This document shows, in pieces, positions 15,761-63,613 of a stretch of 64,000 nt of DNA. A model generated the notes under the pieces. It saw only the letters and a list, made by a program, of their open reading frames with translations. It searched no databases and was not told the DNA's origin. Position numbers and translations under genes: made by a program. Each line of letters begins with the position of its first letter. Positions within the stretch are counted from its first letter, which is position 1. Location: assembly GCA_964016885.1 (NCBI GenBank), contig OZ024741.1, positions 162,006,001 through 162,070,000 of the forward strand, in the 5' to 3' direction. The DNA is from Eledone cirrhosa. Its lineage: Eukaryota.

Positions 15761-16899
15761 TATTTCCTGCCATATTTGCAGTGTTTTGTTGGTCTCATTC
15801 ACACCAGTCACCAATTTGGTACTTTTCTGTGAAAACTAAGATTTTTAGAGGCAACTTTTACTTGTCTCCTTATAGCTACATCACTGAATTGTAAGAATTT
15901 TCTTGGGAGCTAACAGTGTCGCCCATTGCTCCATCTCCCCTTGTAGTTTACCACTTTGGTCCAAGACTGCTTATTTGTCTGATAGGAGCCTTCTATATCG
16001 CGACTAATCATCATATGTGATGGTTATATCATTATCCACCCCCTGCGACCCATTCTGTAGCAGAACAGCTCTGCCAAATTTTTTTTAGAGATTTGTGATG
16101 GGGTAAGTGTTTGTGACGTAAAAGGAAGAAACATTTACAGTGTTTTTTTTTTGTGCATTTCTATGTGTGTGTTTCTTTAGTTTTTATTCCCTTCTTTCAT
16201 TATATGTTCTTTGGACCATCAACAATTACCTACATATAAAATTTCAGCACAAGAATCACATACACCAACATTTATTTAAACTTTTTATATATTTTGAGAC
16301 CTGACCTTTATGGGATACATCCCCTCAGTTAAAATTCACATAGGAGCGTACTGCACATGTATCTGATACAGTGCTGTTATATAAACACCATTTGACCAAC
16401 TAAGCAAGATTTACTCAGCTTCAATCTCAAGCTCACAAATTACTATTTTTTTTCTTCTTTCTATTGCTTCTACAACTACTACAATGCTCCTCTGAATAGA
16501 CAAATTGTATGGTATCCTTACCCAAATCCACCTGATGTACTCATCTGTCCTCTTCCAGTCACCTCTTTCGATATAACCCAGATCCTGCACTTAACACTTA
16601 GCTTAATTTAAACATTCTTTCCCTGAATTGCATCCCTCTCAGACTCTTTCCATCTCATTAAAATTTTCCTGCAGCTGTCAACGCTACAAAAATTTAAAGT
16701 GGACACCAACCTCATTAATCTCACATATCAATGAAGAAAAAACAAAACAAAAAATGTGGTGTGAGAGAGTATTCAGAGAATTATGTTCTGTGTTCAGAGA
16801 GTGTGTATACACACATACATATGTTTAACATCTATTTTCCATACAAGCCTTATATGTTTACATTAAACTCACAAATATTTCTGTATTTCTTACTTTCAG

Positions 16900-17463
16900 G
16901 TTACCGATTCTTCAAGGCTGTTATGTTCTTAACTGGTTTCATCTTTGGCACAGTGGTTGTATATATAGTCTGTATAGAAGAAACAGTATTGCCGAAAGAG
17001 GCGAACATTGGCATTGCAGTGGGTGCCGGCATAATCTGTGGACTGATTACTATGCTGGTCCAGTATGTTGGACTTTTTCTGACCGGATTCCACTTTGGTG
17101 TTGGTCTTTCAACTGGAGTGTTGGTCACAGTTGACCAGTTCCATAATATTGCCAACAAATGGATACCAATTGGTGTTCTCATTGGTGTTGGTATTTTATT
17201 TGCACTGCTGACTCTGAAATTCCAGAAGGCAGGCACGATTCTTGGCACAAGTGTCTTTGGTGCCGCCTTGATGGCAATTTGCCTGGACTATTTTATAGAA
17301 AAATTCCTGATCGTGAACTATGTGTGGGAGTGTATCAAAGTGGAGGATTCTGATCCACCCTGTTGGTACAGCTGGCTGATTCTCGGATGCTGGCCTTTCT
17401 GCTTCCTTGTAGGCTCCTTGACCCAGTGGAGGATAACGGGACAGAGTTCAGACCATCATGAAA
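16900..17463 (+). CDS. TMEM198: TMEM198 coding exon 2 (multi-pass TM region, GYRFFKAVMFLTG...CWYSW...DHHE)
   Basis: Acceptor tactttcag at 16891-16899; donor A|gtaagt at 17464; phase 1-1, 564 nt. The motifs GYRFFKAVMFLTG, VGLFLTG, DYFIE and CWYSW are characteristic of TMEM198. Confidence 0.95.
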
Positions 17464-18959
17464 GTAAGTAATTTTTAATAAAATGTGTGTGTGCTTGTGC
17501 CTTTGTGTGTATTTGTGATATAACTGTTAGTTGTATGATGTTGAATAAGATAAAATCAACATCAAAACAATGATGGTAATCATGTATTTAGGATGAAATG
17601 ATTCATATTGGAATTAAAAGCTTCCCTCATCATTTTTATATAGAAACTTTTGCTAAGTTATGATCTAAACTCCTACTTATGTAACGAAAAAGATATTTTA
17701 CTAAACCAGTCCAAATATTTTATTTTGAAAATTAAGACAAGAGACAGTGTATTTCAGTAGAGATTGTCCAGCATTTACTAACAGGGGAAATGGACGTTAA
17801 ATAGTGATGATGATGGCAGCATTAGTGGTGACAGTGGTTCAAAGGGGTTAAAAATACTTTTGATTTAATAATAATAAACTTTGTCGGAGGGGTTCTAGTT
17901 ATAAATACATTTTTATCCTTAACACAAATAAAAAAAAAAGTAAATATCAAAGCAACTAACTAGATAGGGAGAAAAAAAAATGCATGTAATTAGTTATATC
18001 TTCTCTAGTAATGAAAAGTATAATTAATAATGTTGATGTTTGCCAAATCATCATCCTTTTTTCTATGCTAGAGAATATTTAAAATACTTTGGCCTTTATT
18101 TGAGAGTATGAAGCTCTACAAATAGCATATGGCCTACTGAGACTCTTTGTAGAATAAAAATCAAAATAGTCTATTTTGTCTTAATATACTCTCATTAACT
18201 TGAGCTTTTACTATATTTATTTATTCTTTCACTGGTTTCAGTCATTCAATTGCAGCTATTATGAGACACAGTCAGTTATATCGATCTCAAAACTTAGTTT
18301 CATACACATTTCAATGATCTCTATTTATTGATTAGTTGACTTAGGCCACTTTTAGTAAGTTACCTCCCTTCAAATTTATATAGTAAAAGTATTGGTTTGG
18401 ACAATGTGTATTCTATTACTTCCCACTGATAAGGTGTAAATGGATGTATATACCACAGATACATGTACACTTAATGTAATCCTAGAGGAGAATCAGCATG
18501 TTACATGTGTGACAAGGCTGGCTTTTTGAATTCCAGGTACAAACCATCCAATGGGCTTCCACTATTTCTGCCTATAAATCCCCTTCACAAGTCTTTGTTC
18601 AAGAGAGAAAACTATGTTGGTATGGCCATGTGATGCATATGGGGGATGAGAGCTGCATAAAAAAGTGCAGTCAATGGAAGCTGTGGAAAAGGAAGACCTA
18701 GAAAAACATGGGGCAACATGGTAAAGACTAATCTCAAAAAGTTAGACATCATGGAGATGACACAGGATTGAGTCAACTGGCGATATTCCATACTACAGAA
18801 GACTCACATTCTTACAACACACTAATGGGATTGAACAAGCATGGAGAGGAGGGTGTAAAAAGCATAAAAATATAGCAACATTTAGGTTATCTTCTTACAT
18901 TTCTCTCTCCCCACTATCTATTTCCCCCATCTAGTCTTCTCCTGTGCACAATGGTATAA

Positions 18960-41522: not shown

Positions 41523-42761
41523 TTAGGTTGTCTCACATGAAATGTATTTGAAATGGAAAGAATAAAATTGTTTTTAAGTGTTTAATTTATTCAAAATATG
41601 ATCCTTGTTTACATATGACCTTCACCCAACGTTCCTTTAAGGCATATATTCCATCTTCAAAGAATTTATCAACTTTTGCACTGATAAACTGTCCGAATGC
41701 TTCAATTACCTCTTCTCTATTTAAGAATGTTTTATTGCATATAAAAAGCTCAAAATGCTTAAATAAGTGATAATCAGTAGGAGAGATATCAGGAGAATAG
41801 GGAGGATGTTGCAAAATTTCATAATTCAGACTTTGCAACTTGTGGACCGTAGCTTGAGAGGTGTGAGGCCGTGCATTATCGTGAAGCAAAATTGGGCCAT
41901 CTCTATTCACTAGTCTGGGATGCTTCTTCTTCAATTTTTCATGCATACGATCAATTTCCTGACAATATGATGTTGCAGTTACAGTATTGCCTTGTTGCAA
42001 AGATGAATAATGAATAATCCCCTTTGCAGACCACTATACAGTGACCATCAACTTCTTAGGGTGCAATGGTGGTTTCGGGTAGTGTTTCGGTGACTCTTCT
42101 GCATCTAACCTCTGCCTAGTCCTTCTGCTGTTATCGAAGAGTATTCATTTCTCATCACACGTAATGAGTCAATGCAAAAATGGATCTCTTTCGAGCCGAG
42201 AAACCAACATTGAGCACACTTTAAGACGCCTGTTTCTTTGAATCTCATTAAGTTGATGTGGAACAAACCTGTCCATCTTTTTGACTTTTCCAATTTTCTT
42301 CAGGTGTCGAGAAACAGTTGAGCGAGATGTCTGGAGCTCAGATGAGATTTTTCGAACCGTTGTTCTCGGATTTTGTTTAACCAAAGCATTCAATTCATCA
42401 TGGCGAATTACTGATATGGGTCTCCCTCTCAGTTCATTTTTAAGGCTCTCATTTTCTGAACGAAATCTTTGAAACCATCTCTGGACAGTTCTGGTGTCAA
42501 CAGAATCGTTACCTAAAGCTTGCTTAATGTTTCATAGGGCTTCTGAGGCCGAGTGACCCAGCTTGTATTCGTACAAGAAAACCACTCGGTATTGTTCAGT
42601 TGTCAACATTGTCATAGGATTGTGGGTAGCGATTTTGAATGGTAATATTGTCTGGAATAAAAGATAGTTAAGATTAAACACAAGCATACACATAATCGAG
42701 CTTATAAATGGCTGATAAAGAAACTTATTAAAAATACGACATTTCATGAGAGACAACCTAA
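41523..42761 (-). mobile_element. mariner (DD34D) transposon, full-length, frameshifted transposase
   Basis: TA TSDs; TIR ttaggttgtctcacatgaaatgt / acatttcatgagagacaacctaa; motifs FVPHQL, HDNARPH and YSPDISPTDY; 1239 bp. Confidence 0.95.
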
Positions 42762-43236
42762 TACTTCCACGTTTGTATGAAAAAAAATAGTTAAAAGTCA
42801 AATCAGAAATTATTAGTACACTAGTTATATTGGAGGGAACAGTAACTCTGATTTTGTAAAAAAAGAATTAACATATGAGAAAGTGGAAGTAATAGGGAAG
42901 GAGGAGTTGGGGTAAAATCAAATATACAAAAACAAAATAAACACAACAGGAGTCAGTGTTGTTGATTTAGTTCATATTTATGTCTGCAATACATCAACAT
43001 TAACAAAATAAAGAATTCCAGGAATGCAATATAAACTTTTGTTGCAGAAATTGTTTAATAAATAATATACAAAAACTATTCTCAAAAATTAGCCTAACAA
43101 ATTTTGGTAGGGTGATGTCAAAAGATATTGGTTGAGTCAAAGCAATGTATTTGCTTAGTATACAAATGACTGAACAATATCGTTACTGATGATCAGCAAC
43201 TTTTAGATATTTCAGCCTGTATAAGAGACTGTTGTA

Positions 43237-44474
43237 TTAGGTTGTCTGGAAAGTTTTTAGCATTTTTTTTTTTCGAAGCATAATAAAAGATAAGACATTT
43301 TAAACATACTCTCATCTTTATTCATTAAAGTAATTGCCATTGTTTTCTATGAATTTAGTCCACCTAGCAGGCAATTTAAATATTTAATCGGCATAAAACT
43401 CAGCTGCTTTTGAGGAAAAGAAGTCATCTATGTGGGTTTTGACACCATCTAAATCATTAAATGATTTTCACTTTAGAGAGTCCTGTAGAGACAAAGACAA
43501 ATAGTAGTCAGATGGTACAATGTGAGGGGAATATGGTGGATGGGGCAAGACATCCCAGCTAAGTTAATGCACAGGTAGCCAAATACATGTGATTGGACAT
43601 TGTCCTGGTGGAACACAGCACCTTTCCTGTTGGAGAGCTCTAGCCTCAATTCCTTGATCTTCTGATTCAAATTTGCTAGCTGATGGCAGTACACATCAGA
43701 ATTGGTCTGATTTTGTGAGAGTAGCTCAAAATAAATAATGCCTTTGAAATCCCACCTGACACAAAGCATGACTTTTTTAAAATGAATATTCTGCTTTGGA
43801 AGCTGTTTTGGAGGAGCCTCAAGCAAATTCAAGGATCCTTTTCTCACTATATCATCGTAAATAGTCTACTTTTCATCTCCAGTTACCAGTTATGTTTTAG
43901 AAGCATATCACAGATGGAATACCGGTCCATACAGTTTTGATCTGACAGTTTGTGAGGCACCCAAACATCATAGTATGAAACATACCCAAGATTCACTAAG
44001 TGTTCGTGAACAGTACTTTTGGAAATTTCCAACTTCTCTGCTAGTTCTCTGGTCGTAATGTTTGAGTTTTCTTCAATGGTTACCTTCAAAATATCATCAT
44101 CTAAGGTTGAGGATTTTCTACAAGGACTGTCATTTTCTAAGCTGAACTCACCATGTCTAAATCTTGCAGACCACCTCCGAGCTGTTGATTCACCTACATC
44201 ATCTTCACCATAAACTTCATAAGTGATTTTACATATTTCCGCATTTTTACTCTTTTGGAAGAAAAAAAGCATTACTTTTGGTTATCCATTTCAAATGGCA
44301 ACTAGATCTAAAAGAGGTAAAATATATATACTGATTTTTAATGTGGAACTTAGCTTGTAGGCTTCAATACTGTAAGCAATTCTGAAATATGAGTCGTACA
44401 AAAATTAGGATTGTTTCACAAAGGGTTTAATGGCATAAATCTTAAAATCGCCCAGAACTTTCTGGACAACCTGA
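43237..44474 (-). mobile_element. Second mariner transposon (different family), full-length, decayed
   Basis: TA TSDs; TIR ttaggttgtctggaaagtt / aactttctggacaacctga; motifs WVPHKL, KVMLCVRWD and HQDN; 1238 bp. Confidence 0.93.
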
Positions 44475-59273: not shown

Positions 59274-59565
59274 ATGTATAGTTATGTATGTATGTATGTA
59301 TGTATGTATGTATGTATGTATGTATGTATGTATGTATGTATGTATGGGCCCAGCACTATGTGTCAATAATTGTCACAAGTGTAGTGTTTGTACCAGAGTT
59401 TTCAAGTCGCTGGCTGGACTAAAAAGTCACACTCGTTCAGCGCATCGGTAGGGCTTCTCCTACATGGATATAAAGTAGTGGCCGTACTCGAAAACAAGTT
59501 GGCAGCCACCATGTATGTATGTATGTATGTATGTATGTATGTATGTATGTATGTATGTATGTATG

Positions 59566-60687
59566 TTATCTCTTTCTCTTAATTTCGAGTATATTTTTTT
59601 GACCGGCCACCTTCCTGGTGGCAAGGTTGTAAAAGAAAAGAAATTGTCATCCCTTGAATGGCAAGAATGTTTTGCAAATTTTGAAGGTGCCAGCTATCGC
59701 AGCCATTTGTAGACTATGAATTAGGGAGCTGCGCTTTTTGTCCGCAAATCCAAGTTCAGTCATACTTTGGTTGGTATATAACCCGTAGCACCAATAATGA
59801 TGGGTATGAAGCTAAAGGTGTATCTTGGATACTGGATTTGTAAACTCCTCATCAATGGTCCGTAGATGTCCTCCTTCTCCTGTATTTTTCTGACAACATT
59901 TACATCAAGTGGGCAGCTGATCTCCACAACAGAACACGTTTTCAATGTGTGGTCCCAAACTACAATATCAGGCCGGTTGTGCTTTAATTTGGTGGCAGTT
60001 TTTATTTTCAGGTTCCACCAGTATTCCTTAGTGCCATCTGTCTCAATATATTCTTCCTCGTTTGTTGTTAATTTTGTTTTCCGAAGTGCGTTCCAGATGG
60101 TTCTAGCTATCCCATCGTGTCTCATGGGGAGGTAGTAGCGAGATGACATTCTTTCGCAGCTGGCAACAATGTGGCTTACATCCTCGATCTTTGTTTTACA
60201 TAGCCTACATTTATTGTCAGCTGCTGGCCCTCCTCTTTTGTGCAGCAGATATTTGGTAGGGAGTTCTTGTTCCTGTATTGCATAGAGATATCCCTCAAGG
60301 TGTGATGTCATAAACTTGTCGGAACTCCATGCCAGGCTTTTTGAGTGGTTTATCCCCTCTATGGTCTGTGTTTTACGCCTCAAGTATCCATGCACAACTT
60401 TATCTGTAAATTGGTCAATTTTTTTATCTTGTTTGAACATTGTATAGGATCTTCCGATTTCTCTGGGTGAGAGATTTATATCAGGCTTTATTCCATATCT
60501 CTCCTCCAGATCAGTCGCTATTCTAATGATATTTCTTTTTTCATGGTCATAAACCTGGGCAAGATGGTTGCCAACCTTTTTCCTCTGTTGAAGGTGTTGC
60601 TTCAGTGTCACTATCCGGGTCTCATATGTTGTTAATATTGATTTTAGACCCCGGCCACCTTCCTTGCGTGAGAAGTATAGCCTATCC
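59566..60687 (-). mobile_element. R4/Dong-clade non-LTR retrotransposon, 5'-truncated copy 1
   Basis: RLYFSRKEGGRGL, AIQEQ, CCHC knuckle CRLC..H..C, RHD, and RLE nuclease RPDIVVWD..VEISCP..K..Y; flanked by (TATG)n. Confidence 0.9.
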
Positions 60688-60718
<31 letters not shown>

Positions 60719-61436
60719 TGTATGTATGTATGTATGTATGTATGTATGTATGTATGTATGTATGTATGGGCCCAGCACTATGTGTCAATAATTGTCACAA
60801 GTGTAGTCTTTGTACCAGAGTTTTCAAGTCGCTGGCTGGACTGAAAAGTCACACTCGTTCAGCGCATCGGTATGGGTTCTCCTACATGGATATAAAGTAG
60901 TGGCCGTACTCGAAAACGAGTTGGCAGCCACCATGTATGTATGTATGTATATATGTATGTATGTATGGGAAGGGAGCTCTTAAGAGTCAATAGCCATCCA
61001 AAATCACCGGGAGAGATGACCCCTTAGCCTTTGTCAAGGCAGAATTCTAGGAGAAGGAAAACTCTGATATAACACCTGCAACCCTGATGGTATCCAATGA
61101 TGTTGACTTGTTCTTCTTTTTGGTAAATATCATCTTGGTTAAGAGAGTGGGACTGGCTTTGTGCAGCGCCTTTGCTCACTATAAAAGCTTCACAGCACAG
61201 GCATTGCTTTATATCTGGAGATCTCTCTGCACTTGTCATCACATGGTACCATGGGCCCTGCACTATGTGTCAATAATGGTCACAAGTGTAGCCTTTGTAC
61301 CAGAGTTTTCAAGTCGCTGGCTGGACTAAAAAGTCACATTCGTTCAGCGCATCGGTAGGGGTTGTCCTACATGGATATAAAGTAGTGGCCGTACTCGAAA
61401 ACGAGTTGGCAGCCACTATGTATGTATGTATGTATG

Positions 61437-62218
61437 TTATCTCTTTCTCTTAATTTCGAGTATATTTTTTTGACCGGCCACCTTCCTGGTGGCAAGGTTG
61501 TAAAAGAAAAGAAATTGTCATCCCTTGAATCGCAAGAATGTTTTGCAAATTTTGAAGGTGCCAGCTATCGCAGCCATTTGTAGACTATGAATTAGGGAGC
61601 TGGGCTCTTTGTCCACAAATCCAAGTTCAGTCATACTTTGGTCCAAGCGGGTTGGTATATAACCCGTAGCTCCAATAATTATGGGTATGAAGCTAAAGGT
61701 GTATCTTGGATACTGGATTTGTAAACTCCTCATCAATGGTCCGTAGATGTCCTCCTTCTCCTGTATTTTTCTGACAACGTTTACATCAAGTGGGCAGCTG
61801 ATCTCCACAACAGAACACGTTTTCAATGTGTGGTCCCAAACTACAATATCAGGCCGGTTGTGCTTTAATTTGGTGGCAGTTTTTATTTTCAGGTTCCACC
61901 AGTATTCCTTAGTGCCATCTGTCTCAATATATTCTTCCTCGTTTGTTGTTAATTTTGTTTTCCGAAGTGCGTTCCAGATGGCTCTAGCTATCCCATCGTG
62001 TCTCATGGGGAGGTAGTAGCGAGATGACATTCTTTCGCAGCTGGCAACAATGTGGCTTACATCCTCGATCTTTGTTTTACATAGCCTACATTTATTGTCA
62101 GCTGATGGCCCTCCCCTTTTGTGCAGCAGATATTTGGTTATATGTTCCTGTATTACATAGAGATATCCCTCAAGGTGTGATGTCATAAACTTGTCGGAAC
62201 TCCATGCCAGGCTTTTTG

Positions 62219-62219
<1 letters not shown>
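61437..62219 (-). mobile_element. R4/Dong-clade non-LTR retrotransposon, 5'-truncated copy 2
   Basis: Same family, ORF runs to its natural stop at 61518, different 5' truncation, flanked by (TATG)n. Confidence 0.9.
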
Positions 62220-62249
<30 letters not shown>

Positions 62250-62847
62250 TGTATGTATGTATGTATGTATGTATGTATGTATGTATGTAGGTTTCTTGGT
62301 GAGGAGGGTGACTTTGGACATCCTGCAGGACTAAAAACAAAACCTGTCAAAGGGCAAAGGAGCTCTTAAGAGTCAATGGCCATCCAAAATCACCGGGAGA
62401 GATGACCCATTAGCCTTTGTCAAGGCAGAATTCTAGGAGAAGGAAAAATCTTATATAACACCTGCAACCCTGATGGTATCCAATGATGTTGACTTGTTCT
62501 TCTTTTTGGTAAATATCATTGGTTAAGAGAGTGGGACTGGCTTTGTGCAGTGCCTTTGCTCACTATAAAAGCTTCACGGCACAGGCATTGCTTTATATCT
62601 GGAGATCTCTCTGCACTTGTCATCACAAGGTACCATGGGCCCAGCACTATGTGTCAATAATTGTCACAAGTTTGTACCAGAGTTTTCAAGTCGCTGGCTG
62701 GACTAAAAAGTTACACTTGTTCAACGCATCAGTAGGGGTTCTCCTACATGGATATAAAGTAGTGGCCGTACTCGAAAACGAGTTGGCAGCCACCATGTAT
62801 ATATATAAATGTATGTATATATGTATGTATGTGTGTATGTTTATGTC

Positions 62848-62961
62848 AGGTCACCAGTTGGTGCTACTGGTAACATGTATCCCAGTACAACCTGTCCCAT
62901 GGTCGGGTCGTTGGCGACTAAACTGGCAACCCTACCAAGGTTTCTTGGTGAGGAGGGTGAC
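62848..62961 (+). ncRNA. Twister-like ribozyme fold at the 5' end of the full-length SINE
   Basis: P2 gtca/tgag; L2 CC; P3 gttg..tactgg/ccagta caac; L4 GTCCCATGG; 3' GAGGG. The cleavage-site strand and P1 are non-canonical. Confidence 0.5.
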
Positions 62962-63613
62962 TTTGGACATCCTGCAGGACTAAAAACAAAACCTGTCAAA
63001 GGGCAAAGGAGCTCTTAAGAGTCAATGGCCATCCAAAATCACCGGGAGTGATGACCCATTAGCCTTTGTCGAGGCAGAATTCTAGGAGAAGGAAAACTCT
63101 GATATAACACCTGCAACCCTGATGGTATCCAATGATGTTGACTTGTTCTTCTTTTTGGTAAATATCATCTTGGTTAAGAGAGTGGGACTGGCTTTGTGCA
63201 GTGCCTTTGCTCACTATAAAAGCTTCACGGCACAGGCATTGCTTTATATCTGGAGATCTCTCTGCACTTGTCGTCATATGGTACCATGGGCCCAGCACTA
63301 TGTGTCAATAATTGTCACAAGTGTAGTGTTCGTACCAGAGTTTTCAAGTCGCTGGCTGGACTAAAAAGTCACACTCGTTCAGCGCATCGGTAGGGGTTCT
63401 CCTACATGGATATAAAGTAGTGGCCGTACTCGAAAACGAGTTGGCAGCCACCATGTGTGTATGTATGTGTGTATGCATGCAGTCTATCGATCTATTTATC
63501 TATCTATCTAATGGAAAAACTAATGGAAACATTGTTTCCTTGGATCGATTTGACGAGGTTCACCCCACCCGGCAAGCGAATGAGGTCTGGGATCTTGTCA
63601 ATCGATCAGAACG

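What the first reader, a model, noticed from the sequence alone, without database searches (positions are those of the whole stretch)
62845..62965. Twister-like ribozyme with a covarying pseudoknot at the 5' end of an RTE-derived SINE
Seen: the full-length copy begins c-AG-GTCA-CC-A-[P3]-cct-GTCCCATGG-t-cgg-[two hairpins]-TGAG-GAGGG-tgac. The CCC/GGG T1 pseudoknot and the G-A of GAGGG are present. The usual GC/GC T2 pair is replaced by CC/GG, a compensatory change. Known: twister ribozymes process the 5' end of the RTE-clade Perere-3 in Schistosoma, with P1 partly supplied by flanking DNA. Inference: this is a variant twister with an expanded P5 region on a mollusc non-autonomous retroelement. 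This copy's cleavage strand (AG instead of AA, a G-G in P2, weak P1) may be decayed.
Basis: partly seen in the sequence, partly recalled or inferred. Interest (0 to 1): 0.72.

Follow-up and report, generated by a model that had tools for sequence, protein, structure and literature searches.

The report
Non-twister structured head of RTE retroposon
The start of a very abundant short jumping element carries a folded RNA segment that is conserved in other genomes and fails key tests for the twister ribozyme; it likely cuts the element's RNA free from longer transcripts, but cleavage is untested.

Summary
The twister-like letters are present at 62847-62961 as described, but they are not a decayed twister. 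Contigs of the family (9,890 and 5,420 laid) begin GTCAGGTCA like this copy. So do 9 of 12 homologous heads from other assemblies; 0 of 12 can encode the expected AACTCA. Twister position A2 is therefore fixed as G, a change reported to nearly abolish cleavage (PMC11662667). The claimed T2 'CC' varies as part of a local hairpin while the loop GG stays. The middle T1 base is the most variable site, with no compensation. A twister core is feasible in only 3 of 10 homologues.

What is real is a roughly 150-nt structured head on a 608-bp, very high-copy, non-coding RTE-derived element with (TATG)n tails. It has two hairpins with compensatory changes and a conserved CGACTAAA loop. It matches no Rfam family, my HDV-like descriptor, or a second RTE head motif found here. 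RTE heads carry ribozymes in other lineages, so an unassigned self-cleaving RNA is the leading reading (about 45%). It is untested.

The parts
62845..63452 (+). Full-length non-coding RTE-derived retroposon copy (608 bp)
   Evidence: Shared with four shorter copies at 95-98% identity; stops in all six frames and no A/B box; very high summed contig depth in the best-holding sample
62845..62853 (+). Conserved 5' start GTCAGGTCA; first conserved base G62845, three bases upstream of the twister model's cut
   Evidence: Loose-end consensuses with mixed AT-rich flanks; the 8-mer from 62846 is encodable in 9 of 12 homologues, 8 of them with the G
62854..62861 (+).
   Evidence: Other subfamilies read CT-CTTG-AG (145 and 143 contigs) or GGC-TTCT-GCC (43 and 44 contigs) in loose ends of agreement 0.46-0.64; low probability in the ViennaRNA ensemble
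62865..62887 (+).
   Evidence: Pair probability 0.88-0.95; pairs 62867:62885 and 62870:62882 hold in 13 of 13 covering homologues, without two-sided changes
62891..62906 (+). Twister-L4-like segment; pairing partner unresolved; 62897 is T in about 60%, C in about 25%, G in 12% of family depth
62910..62927 (+). Hairpin closing a conserved 8-nt loop CGACTAAA (62915-22)
   Evidence: Pair 62910:62927 is G-C or G-T in 10, A-T in 2, possible in 1 and broken in 1 of 14 homologues; readable loop positions are compatible with the window letter in 13-14 of 14
62933..62950 (+).
   Evidence: Pair 62937:62946 is A-T 4, G-C 2, T-A 2, G-T 1, broken 1 of 10 homologues; 62933 is C in 97-99% of family depth, making a Watson-Crick pair with G62950; probability 0.88-1.0
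62951..62961 (+). Purine-rich AGGAGGG then TGAC, which can pair with GTCA 62850-53
   Evidence: Long helix probability 0.94-0.98; A62954 is T in 3 of 10 homologues
63059..63111 (+). Conserved RTE 5'-UTR domain (the segment also used in Ceph-type SINEs)
   Evidence: 75-87% matches to many of the 120 metagenome loci; the motif occurs 74 times in the supplement of PMC5786205, aligned to RTE-3_BF and RTE-12_AMi; an APE-like reading frame follows it in 3 loci (Pfam only E=0.066 for one of 2 scanned)
63453..63478 (+). Degenerate (ATGT)n tail
   Evidence: all five copies end at the same base before such a tract
62290..62794 (+). 5'-truncated copy D, directly upstream of the full copy
60970..61416 (+). 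5'-truncated copy C
60769..60932 (+). 5'-truncated copy B (same start as A)
59347..59510 (+). 5'-truncated copy A

Best explanation
This is the conserved, structured 5' head of a very high-copy non-coding element that carries an RTE 5'-UTR domain; it fails key twister features and likely acts as a self-cleaving RNA of unassigned fold that would cut just before G62845 to free the element's RNA from read-through transcripts. Shown: the element's anatomy, the fixed start, conservation in other assemblies, two hairpins with compensatory changes, and failure of the twister features. Inferred: cleavage, its site, mobilisation by an RTE protein, and a preference for (TATG)n tracts that places copies behind one another and so inside co-transcripts.
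For: Sharp shared start with variable flank in family contigs and in 9 of 12 homologues, against 1 of 37 background stretches. The head is conserved in 14 spurious translations from other assemblies, with compensatory pair types in two hairpins and a conserved terminal loop. No A/B box or tRNA. The same position holds other 5' RNAs in RTE-type elements: twister in Perere-3 (PMC8501958), HDV-like ribozymes (as cited in PMC5786205 and PMC6765202), HDV-like folds in 2 of 109 loci, and a covarying motif in 46 of the 120 loci. All five copies lie between (TATG)n tracts, and D and E are head to tail.
Against: No cleavage data and no catalytic motif of a known class. The full tertiary fold could not be assigned, and several alternative pairings remain. 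The head is not unusually stable (z = -1.5, 14 of 200 shuffles as good). The short 5' hairpin has probability 0.004 in the computed ensemble. Homologues were found through protein likeness, which favours conserved first and second codon positions, and several are close kin, so they are fewer than 14 independent events. A sharp start and conserved letters would also arise from an internal promoter. No autonomous partner or 3'-end match was found in the window.
Confidence: 0.45

Rival explanations
1. The head is structured but not catalytic: an internal promoter or start signal, or a binding and translation platform for the RTE protein, possibly descended from a ribozyme that has lost its chemistry.
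For: No known catalytic motif matches. Summed contig depth over the head is similar to that downstream, as expected if active templates start here by any means. The twister-like loop and GAGGG could be relics.
Against: Compensatory changes indicate selection on RNA pairing, not DNA letters alone. Other RTE heads at this position are ribozymes (PMC8501958; citations in PMC5786205).
Confidence: 0.38
2. An active variant twister with a swapped T2 pair and a two-hairpin P5 insert.
For: Order and spacing match the Schistosoma twister table. A62848, G62953 and A62954 sit at the general-acid, general-base and A46 places. The C26U change, the family majority, is tolerated (PMC5113685). P1, P2, P4 imperfections and P5 inserts are tolerated (PMC11662667). 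The relaxed match is uncommon locally, 67 of 3000 shuffles.
Against: A2 is fixed as G, and A2 changes gave near loss of activity. G13 is one of four positions intolerant of single change, and the text read reports rescue only for the C14-G30 pair. The T2 5' letters vary (CC, CT, GG in the family; YA and TG read from P0001 and P0006) while TGG stays in 12 of 13. No change at 62955-57 reaches 2% against 12% G at 62897. The core is feasible in 3 of 10 homologues. The element starts upstream of the twister cut. The twister-constrained nested fold is 30 kcal/mol above the minimum, pseudoknot energy not counted.
Confidence: 0.07
3. An aberrant HDV-like ribozyme cutting before G62845, using CTAA (62918-21) as the catalytic strand and CCAGT/ACTGG as P2.
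For: The start is a G after a variable base. The P2-like pairing is possible in 14 of 14 homologues and the CTAA letters are conserved.
Against: My HDV-like descriptor finds L077 and L115 but nothing in the head. The required P4 pair 62910:62915 is impossible in 4 of 14 homologues. An older subfamily reads ACCAG, which breaks that P2. No P3-L3-P1 order could be built.
Confidence: 0.06

Closest known systems
Twister ribozyme (type P1) at the 5' end of Perere-3, Schistosoma mansoni (PMC8501958)
   Same: Position at the 5' end of an RTE-type element; a 9-nt loop starting GTC followed later by GAGGAGGG; a P3-like hairpin.
   Different: No AA after the supposed cut; T2 and T1 do not covary; a 46-nt insert whose second hairpin takes the P2 3' strand; the element starts upstream of the twister cut, whereas Perere-3 target duplications abut the AA.
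Bipartite non-autonomous RTE elements (RTESINE1/2, WALLSI3, RTE-N2_Lch; PMC5786205)
   Same: Short, non-coding, carries the conserved RTE 5'-UTR domain, microsatellite tail, 5'-truncated copies, no small-RNA head.
   Different: The parent RTE and the origin of the 3' part were not identified here; copies cluster in (TATG)n tracts.
HDV-like ribozymes of RTE, R2 and L1Tc elements (as cited in PMC6765202 and PMC4908430)
   Same: The element begins at a G after a variable base; structured 5' head.
   Different: No nested double pseudoknot with a P3/L3 consensus could be built.
Motif M, a second RTE head found here (no Rfam match)
   Same: Same position upstream of the same RTE UTR domain; 5' strand followed by a variable hairpin; a GTCC-type segment followed by GGT.
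   Different: Neither a profile HMM nor a covariance model of motif M matches the head; the GGAC that a mapping would need is not kept in homologues.

Membership tests
Twister ribozyme | A1 (general acid) after the cut | tested here: met
Twister ribozyme | A2 in L1 | tested here: not met
   G62849 in family contigs and in 9 of 12 homologues; AACTCA encodable in 0 of 12; importance from PMC11662667
Twister ribozyme | General-base G and following A in the L1 3' strand | tested here: inconclusive
   G62953 and A62954 present in the family; A62954 is T in 3 of 10 homologues; G62953 falls on a third codon position
Twister ribozyme | T1 pseudoknot maintained or covarying | tested here: not met
   62897 is T 62%, G 12%, A 2% with no change of 2% or more at 62955-57; T1 and A46 cannot both hold in 4 of 10 homologues; the T variant alone would be tolerated
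Twister ribozyme | T2 pseudoknot (G13-C31, C14-G30) maintained or covarying | tested here: not met
   5' letters vary as a local hairpin while the loop TGG is kept in 12 of 13 homologues; linkage within single family copies was not seen
Twister ribozyme | P2 helix | tested here: inconclusive
   3 of 4 pairs possible, G-G fixed; probability 0.000 and 3' strand partly in another hairpin; P2 defects are tolerated in real twisters
Twister ribozyme | Element 5' end at the cleavage site (as in Perere-3) | tested here: not met
   G62845-C62847 conserved upstream of the supposed cut
Twister ribozyme | Match to Rfam twister models | tested here: not met
   a long insert could also cause a miss
Twister ribozyme | Self-cleavage | not testable with these tools
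   Needs an in vitro assay
HDV-like ribozyme | Nested double pseudoknot P1-P2-P3/L3-P1.1-P4 with catalytic C | tested here: not met
   My own descriptor (motif recalled) finds 2 of 109 loci but not the head
Bipartite non-autonomous RTE | RTE 5'-UTR sequence | tested here: met
Bipartite non-autonomous RTE | No coding capacity, microsatellite tail, 5' truncation | tested here: met
Bipartite non-autonomous RTE | 3' end shared with an autonomous RTE | tested here: inconclusive
   No significant match in the window or the loci; no genome held
Bipartite non-autonomous RTE | Target-site duplication | tested here: inconclusive
   Both flanks are (TATG)n-like tracts
Pol III (tRNA-derived) SINE | tRNA-like head with A and B boxes | tested here: not met
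   no 5S or 7SL match

The most novel reading that the evidence does not exclude
The head is a self-cleaving ribozyme of an undescribed class that matures the 5' end of one lineage of animal RTE retrotransposons, cutting before G62845. RTE 5' ends would then be a hunting ground where at least four interchangeable RNA folds (twister, HDV-like, this head, motif M) do the same job.
Probability: 0.27. Interest if true: 0.87.

Novelty: new variant of a known kind. Interest (0 to 1): 0.52.

Why it matters
New ribozyme classes have been found by looking where known ribozymes are expected but missing (PMC10085705 and PMC6765202, passages). RTE 5' ends are such a place. This head is short, conserved across assemblies, present at very high copy in one genome and cheap to assay. 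Cleavage would add a catalytic RNA fold from animal genomes and explain how a promoter-poor element defines its 5' end. A negative result would still define an uncharacterised RTE start signal. The element itself is an ordinary kind.

Tried and rejected
Rfam: nothing at gathering over the window; 11 weak non-ribozyme matches at E<=10 over the element; 1 irrelevant match over 16 loci. No whole genome is held.

Runs: no RNA holder was listed. Raw-read run X21 laid 0 of 12.8 million reads and X17 laid 0 contigs. X4, X8, X12 and X19 gave 1-6 contigs at depth 2-52, which I read as trace DNA and did not count as relatives. I laid 8 of the 24 listed runs; X1 and X2 are one sample.

Collections: viral contigs gave only chance matches. 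The head-specific pattern found 0 in genome contigs. Three contaminated bins held only the shared UTR domain, no twister-P1 over cut-off and one decayed likely homologue. The first protein search found nothing. P0004 was dropped as a repeat-driven false hit and P0016 as a duplicate of P0011. One search had a wrong offset for P0015, corrected; its joint-core test did not cover P0015 and stands.

Models rejected: the 7-bp GGTCACC/GGTGACT helix as an HDV P1 (no P3/L3 before it; first pair lost in an older subfamily); a twister-sister or lantern loop (not recognised by eye against passages of PMC11620745); a mapping onto motif M. The bacterial promoter scan is uninformative. Earlier-findings look-ups returned nothing.

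No paper describing this head turned up, or in supplement searches (four files of PMC9115989 were not searched). Repbase and Dfam were not available, so the element may already be catalogued.

Full report
Observation. They open a 608-bp element (62845-63452) followed by a degenerate (ATGT)n tail. Four more copies lie between 59347 and 62794, all truncated at the 5' end, all ending at the same base, and all flanked by (TATG)n tracts. The cluster sits in and beside a duplicated minus-strand LINE fragment with a zf-RVT match. The element has stops in all six frames, no A/B box and no tRNA. Its segment near 63059-63111 is the conserved RTE 5'-UTR domain: it matches many of 120 metagenome loci, the motif is aligned to RTE-3_BF and RTE-12_AMi in the supplement of PMC5786205, and an APE-like frame follows it in 3 loci. 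This fits a bipartite non-autonomous RTE as described in PMC5786205 (passages). The origin of the 3' part is not shown.

Is the twister match more than chance? Rfam gives nothing at gathering and no twister at E<=10. A relaxed descriptor that accepts this locus fires in 67 of 3000 shuffles and at 35 places in the window; with AA required it does not accept this locus. The match is therefore mildly unusual, not decisive.

Family test. Two runs of one sample laid 9,890 and 5,420 contigs at summed depth near one million, which shows very high copy but is not a copy number. No other letter reached 10% or 2% at 62843-62879, though detection near a stretch end is weaker and divergent contigs are clipped. 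Their clipped ends read GTCAGGTCA after mixed AT-rich flanks. A trace contig in run X8 spans 62843-63022 with only two differences. So AG and the G-G in P2 are the family state, not decay.

T1 and T2 in the family. Position 62897, the middle of the claimed T1, is T 62%, G 12%, A 2% and C for the rest, with no change of 2% or more at 62955-57. The T form would be a tolerated wobble (PMC5113685, whole text); the G form would not pair. The claimed T2 'CC' is replaced in other subfamilies by CT or GG, each time as part of a small local hairpin (CT-CTTG-AG in 145 and 143 contigs, GGC-TTCT-GCC in 43 and 44). These are loose-end consensuses of agreement 0.46-0.64 and are not linked to the loop in single copies. 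Position 62933 is C in 97-99%, which strengthens a hairpin that uses T62949-G62950 of the claimed P2.

Homologues elsewhere. One frame of the head, used as a spurious protein, found 3 homologous heads at E 5e-5 to 2e-4 (a fourth hit was dropped). A profile of these found 11 more, 14 in all, from unnamed ENA and NCBI contigs. Reading codons back, 9 of 12 with upstream sequence can encode TCAGGTCA (background 1 of 37), 8 of these with G62845, and 0 of 12 can encode AACTCA (background 4 of 37). A joint twister core (U24, A28, G30, G45, A46, three T1 pairs) is feasible in 3 of 10 covering homologues. Four fail on U24 plus A46 or T1, two on A46, one on G30 and A46. Two of the three feasible ones still have G at A2 and a broken T2 by my reading of their first codons. 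PMC11662667 (abstract and sections 32, 33, 38) reports that P1, P2, P4 defects and P5 inserts are tolerated, but that A2 changes nearly abolish cleavage and T2 mismatches are harmful. Caveats: these are single genomic copies that may have decayed, several are close kin, third codon positions are unreadable, and the search favours conserved letters.

What is conserved instead. Pair 62937:62946 appears as A-T, G-C and T-A; pair 62910:62927 appears as G-C and A-T; the hairpin at 62865-87 is intact; the readable letters of the loop CGACTAAA are compatible with the window in 13-14 of 14. The computed ensemble favours a long helix joining 62850-55 to 62956-61 and closing a multiloop, and puts the twister skeleton 30 kcal/mol higher without pseudoknot energy. 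It gives the short 5' hairpin only 0.004, which counts against that part of my model, although four pairs of the long helix and a two-pair hairpin can coexist. Overall stability is ordinary (z = -1.5). I could not assign partners for 62891-62906 or a tertiary fold.

Context in other RTE heads. Among the 120 metagenome loci, 2 of 109 with enough upstream sequence match my HDV-like descriptor and 46 carry another structured head, motif M (48 hits, two loci in two pieces and two short). On 20 aligned copies motif M has 10 of 28 pairs with two-sided changes, 0 of 500 shuffles as high, with relatedness not controlled, and it has no Rfam match. No canonical twister was seen among these loci. The head studied here matches neither motif M nor the HDV-like descriptor. 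Twister heads Perere-3, where target duplications abut the cut (PMC8501958; abstract, sections 3, 17 and part 1 of 18). HDV-like ribozymes in RTEs I know only through citations of Ruminski 2011 in PMC5786205, PMC6765202 and PMC4908430 (passages).

Mechanism. Most likely (0.45) the head is a self-cleaving RNA of unassigned fold that cuts before G62845, releasing unit-length RNA from read-through transcripts such as those running from copy D into copy E. An RTE protein would then insert it by target-primed reverse transcription, often into (TATG)n tracts. RTE tails are known to generate microsatellites (PMC2887409, passages). All of these steps are inferred. A non-catalytic start or binding signal is nearly as likely (0.38). 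An active twister (0.07) or an aberrant HDV-like fold (0.06) is unlikely. Descent from a twister cannot be excluded.

Host and novelty. The host was not tested. A cephalopod-like genome is my inference from the repeat landscape and from a decayed likely homologue (E 1.5e-4 in 196 kb) on a contig of a bin that is rich in Ceph-type SINE sequence. I found no description of this head in the searches listed under Tried and rejected, but repeat libraries were not available. Other papers seen as passages only: PMC13282606, PMC10085705, PMC11620745, PMC6154101, PMC9901934; PMC9115989 as a supplement search only. Verdict: the twister claim is not supported; a conserved, unclassified structured RNA head in a ribozyme-expected position is real and worth one cleavage assay.

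Noticed in passing
L054:59-217 (-), L033, L066, L025, L098 and about 40 more of loci L005-L124: Motif M: a roughly 150-nt structured head on RTE-type elements, with covarying helices and a pseudoknot, a 5'-terminal strand that appears by eye to pair internally, and no Rfam match. An APE-like frame follows in L063 and L064. It is a second candidate undescribed ribozyme with better covariation support than the head studied here.
   Followed up: partly
L077, L115 (also L104 and L018 by eye): HDV-like ribozyme folds upstream of the same RTE UTR domain; L115, L104 and L018 were scanned against Rfam without a match, L077 was not scanned.
   Followed up: partly
window 59567-60688 and 61438-62219 (-): Duplicated fragment (96% identical over 788 bp) of a LINE with a zinc-finger and a restriction-like endonuclease-type C-terminus (family call recalled; Pfam zf-RVT only), interleaved with (TATG)n tracts and the five copies; copies A and B look like one duplicated insertion.
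   Followed up: partly
L125-L157 (records CAXXGD01, CAXXMW01, CBDHHR01): Bacterial genome bins in the genome collection contain long animal contigs full of Ceph-type tRNA SINEs, that is, host contamination.
   Followed up: no
L194:1497-1575: Old, decayed likely homologue of the head on one of those animal contigs.
   Followed up: partly
window 16719-17471 (+): Exon-sized reading frame with a TM7S3/TMEM198-like domain, E 6.6e-37.
   Followed up: no
window 41587-44281 (-): Several reading-frame fragments that look like mariner-type transposase (recalled resemblance).
   Followed up: no
protein collection, P0001-P0003 and P0005-P0016: Spurious predicted proteins that are translations of this RTE head sit in the public protein collection.
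   Followed up: yes
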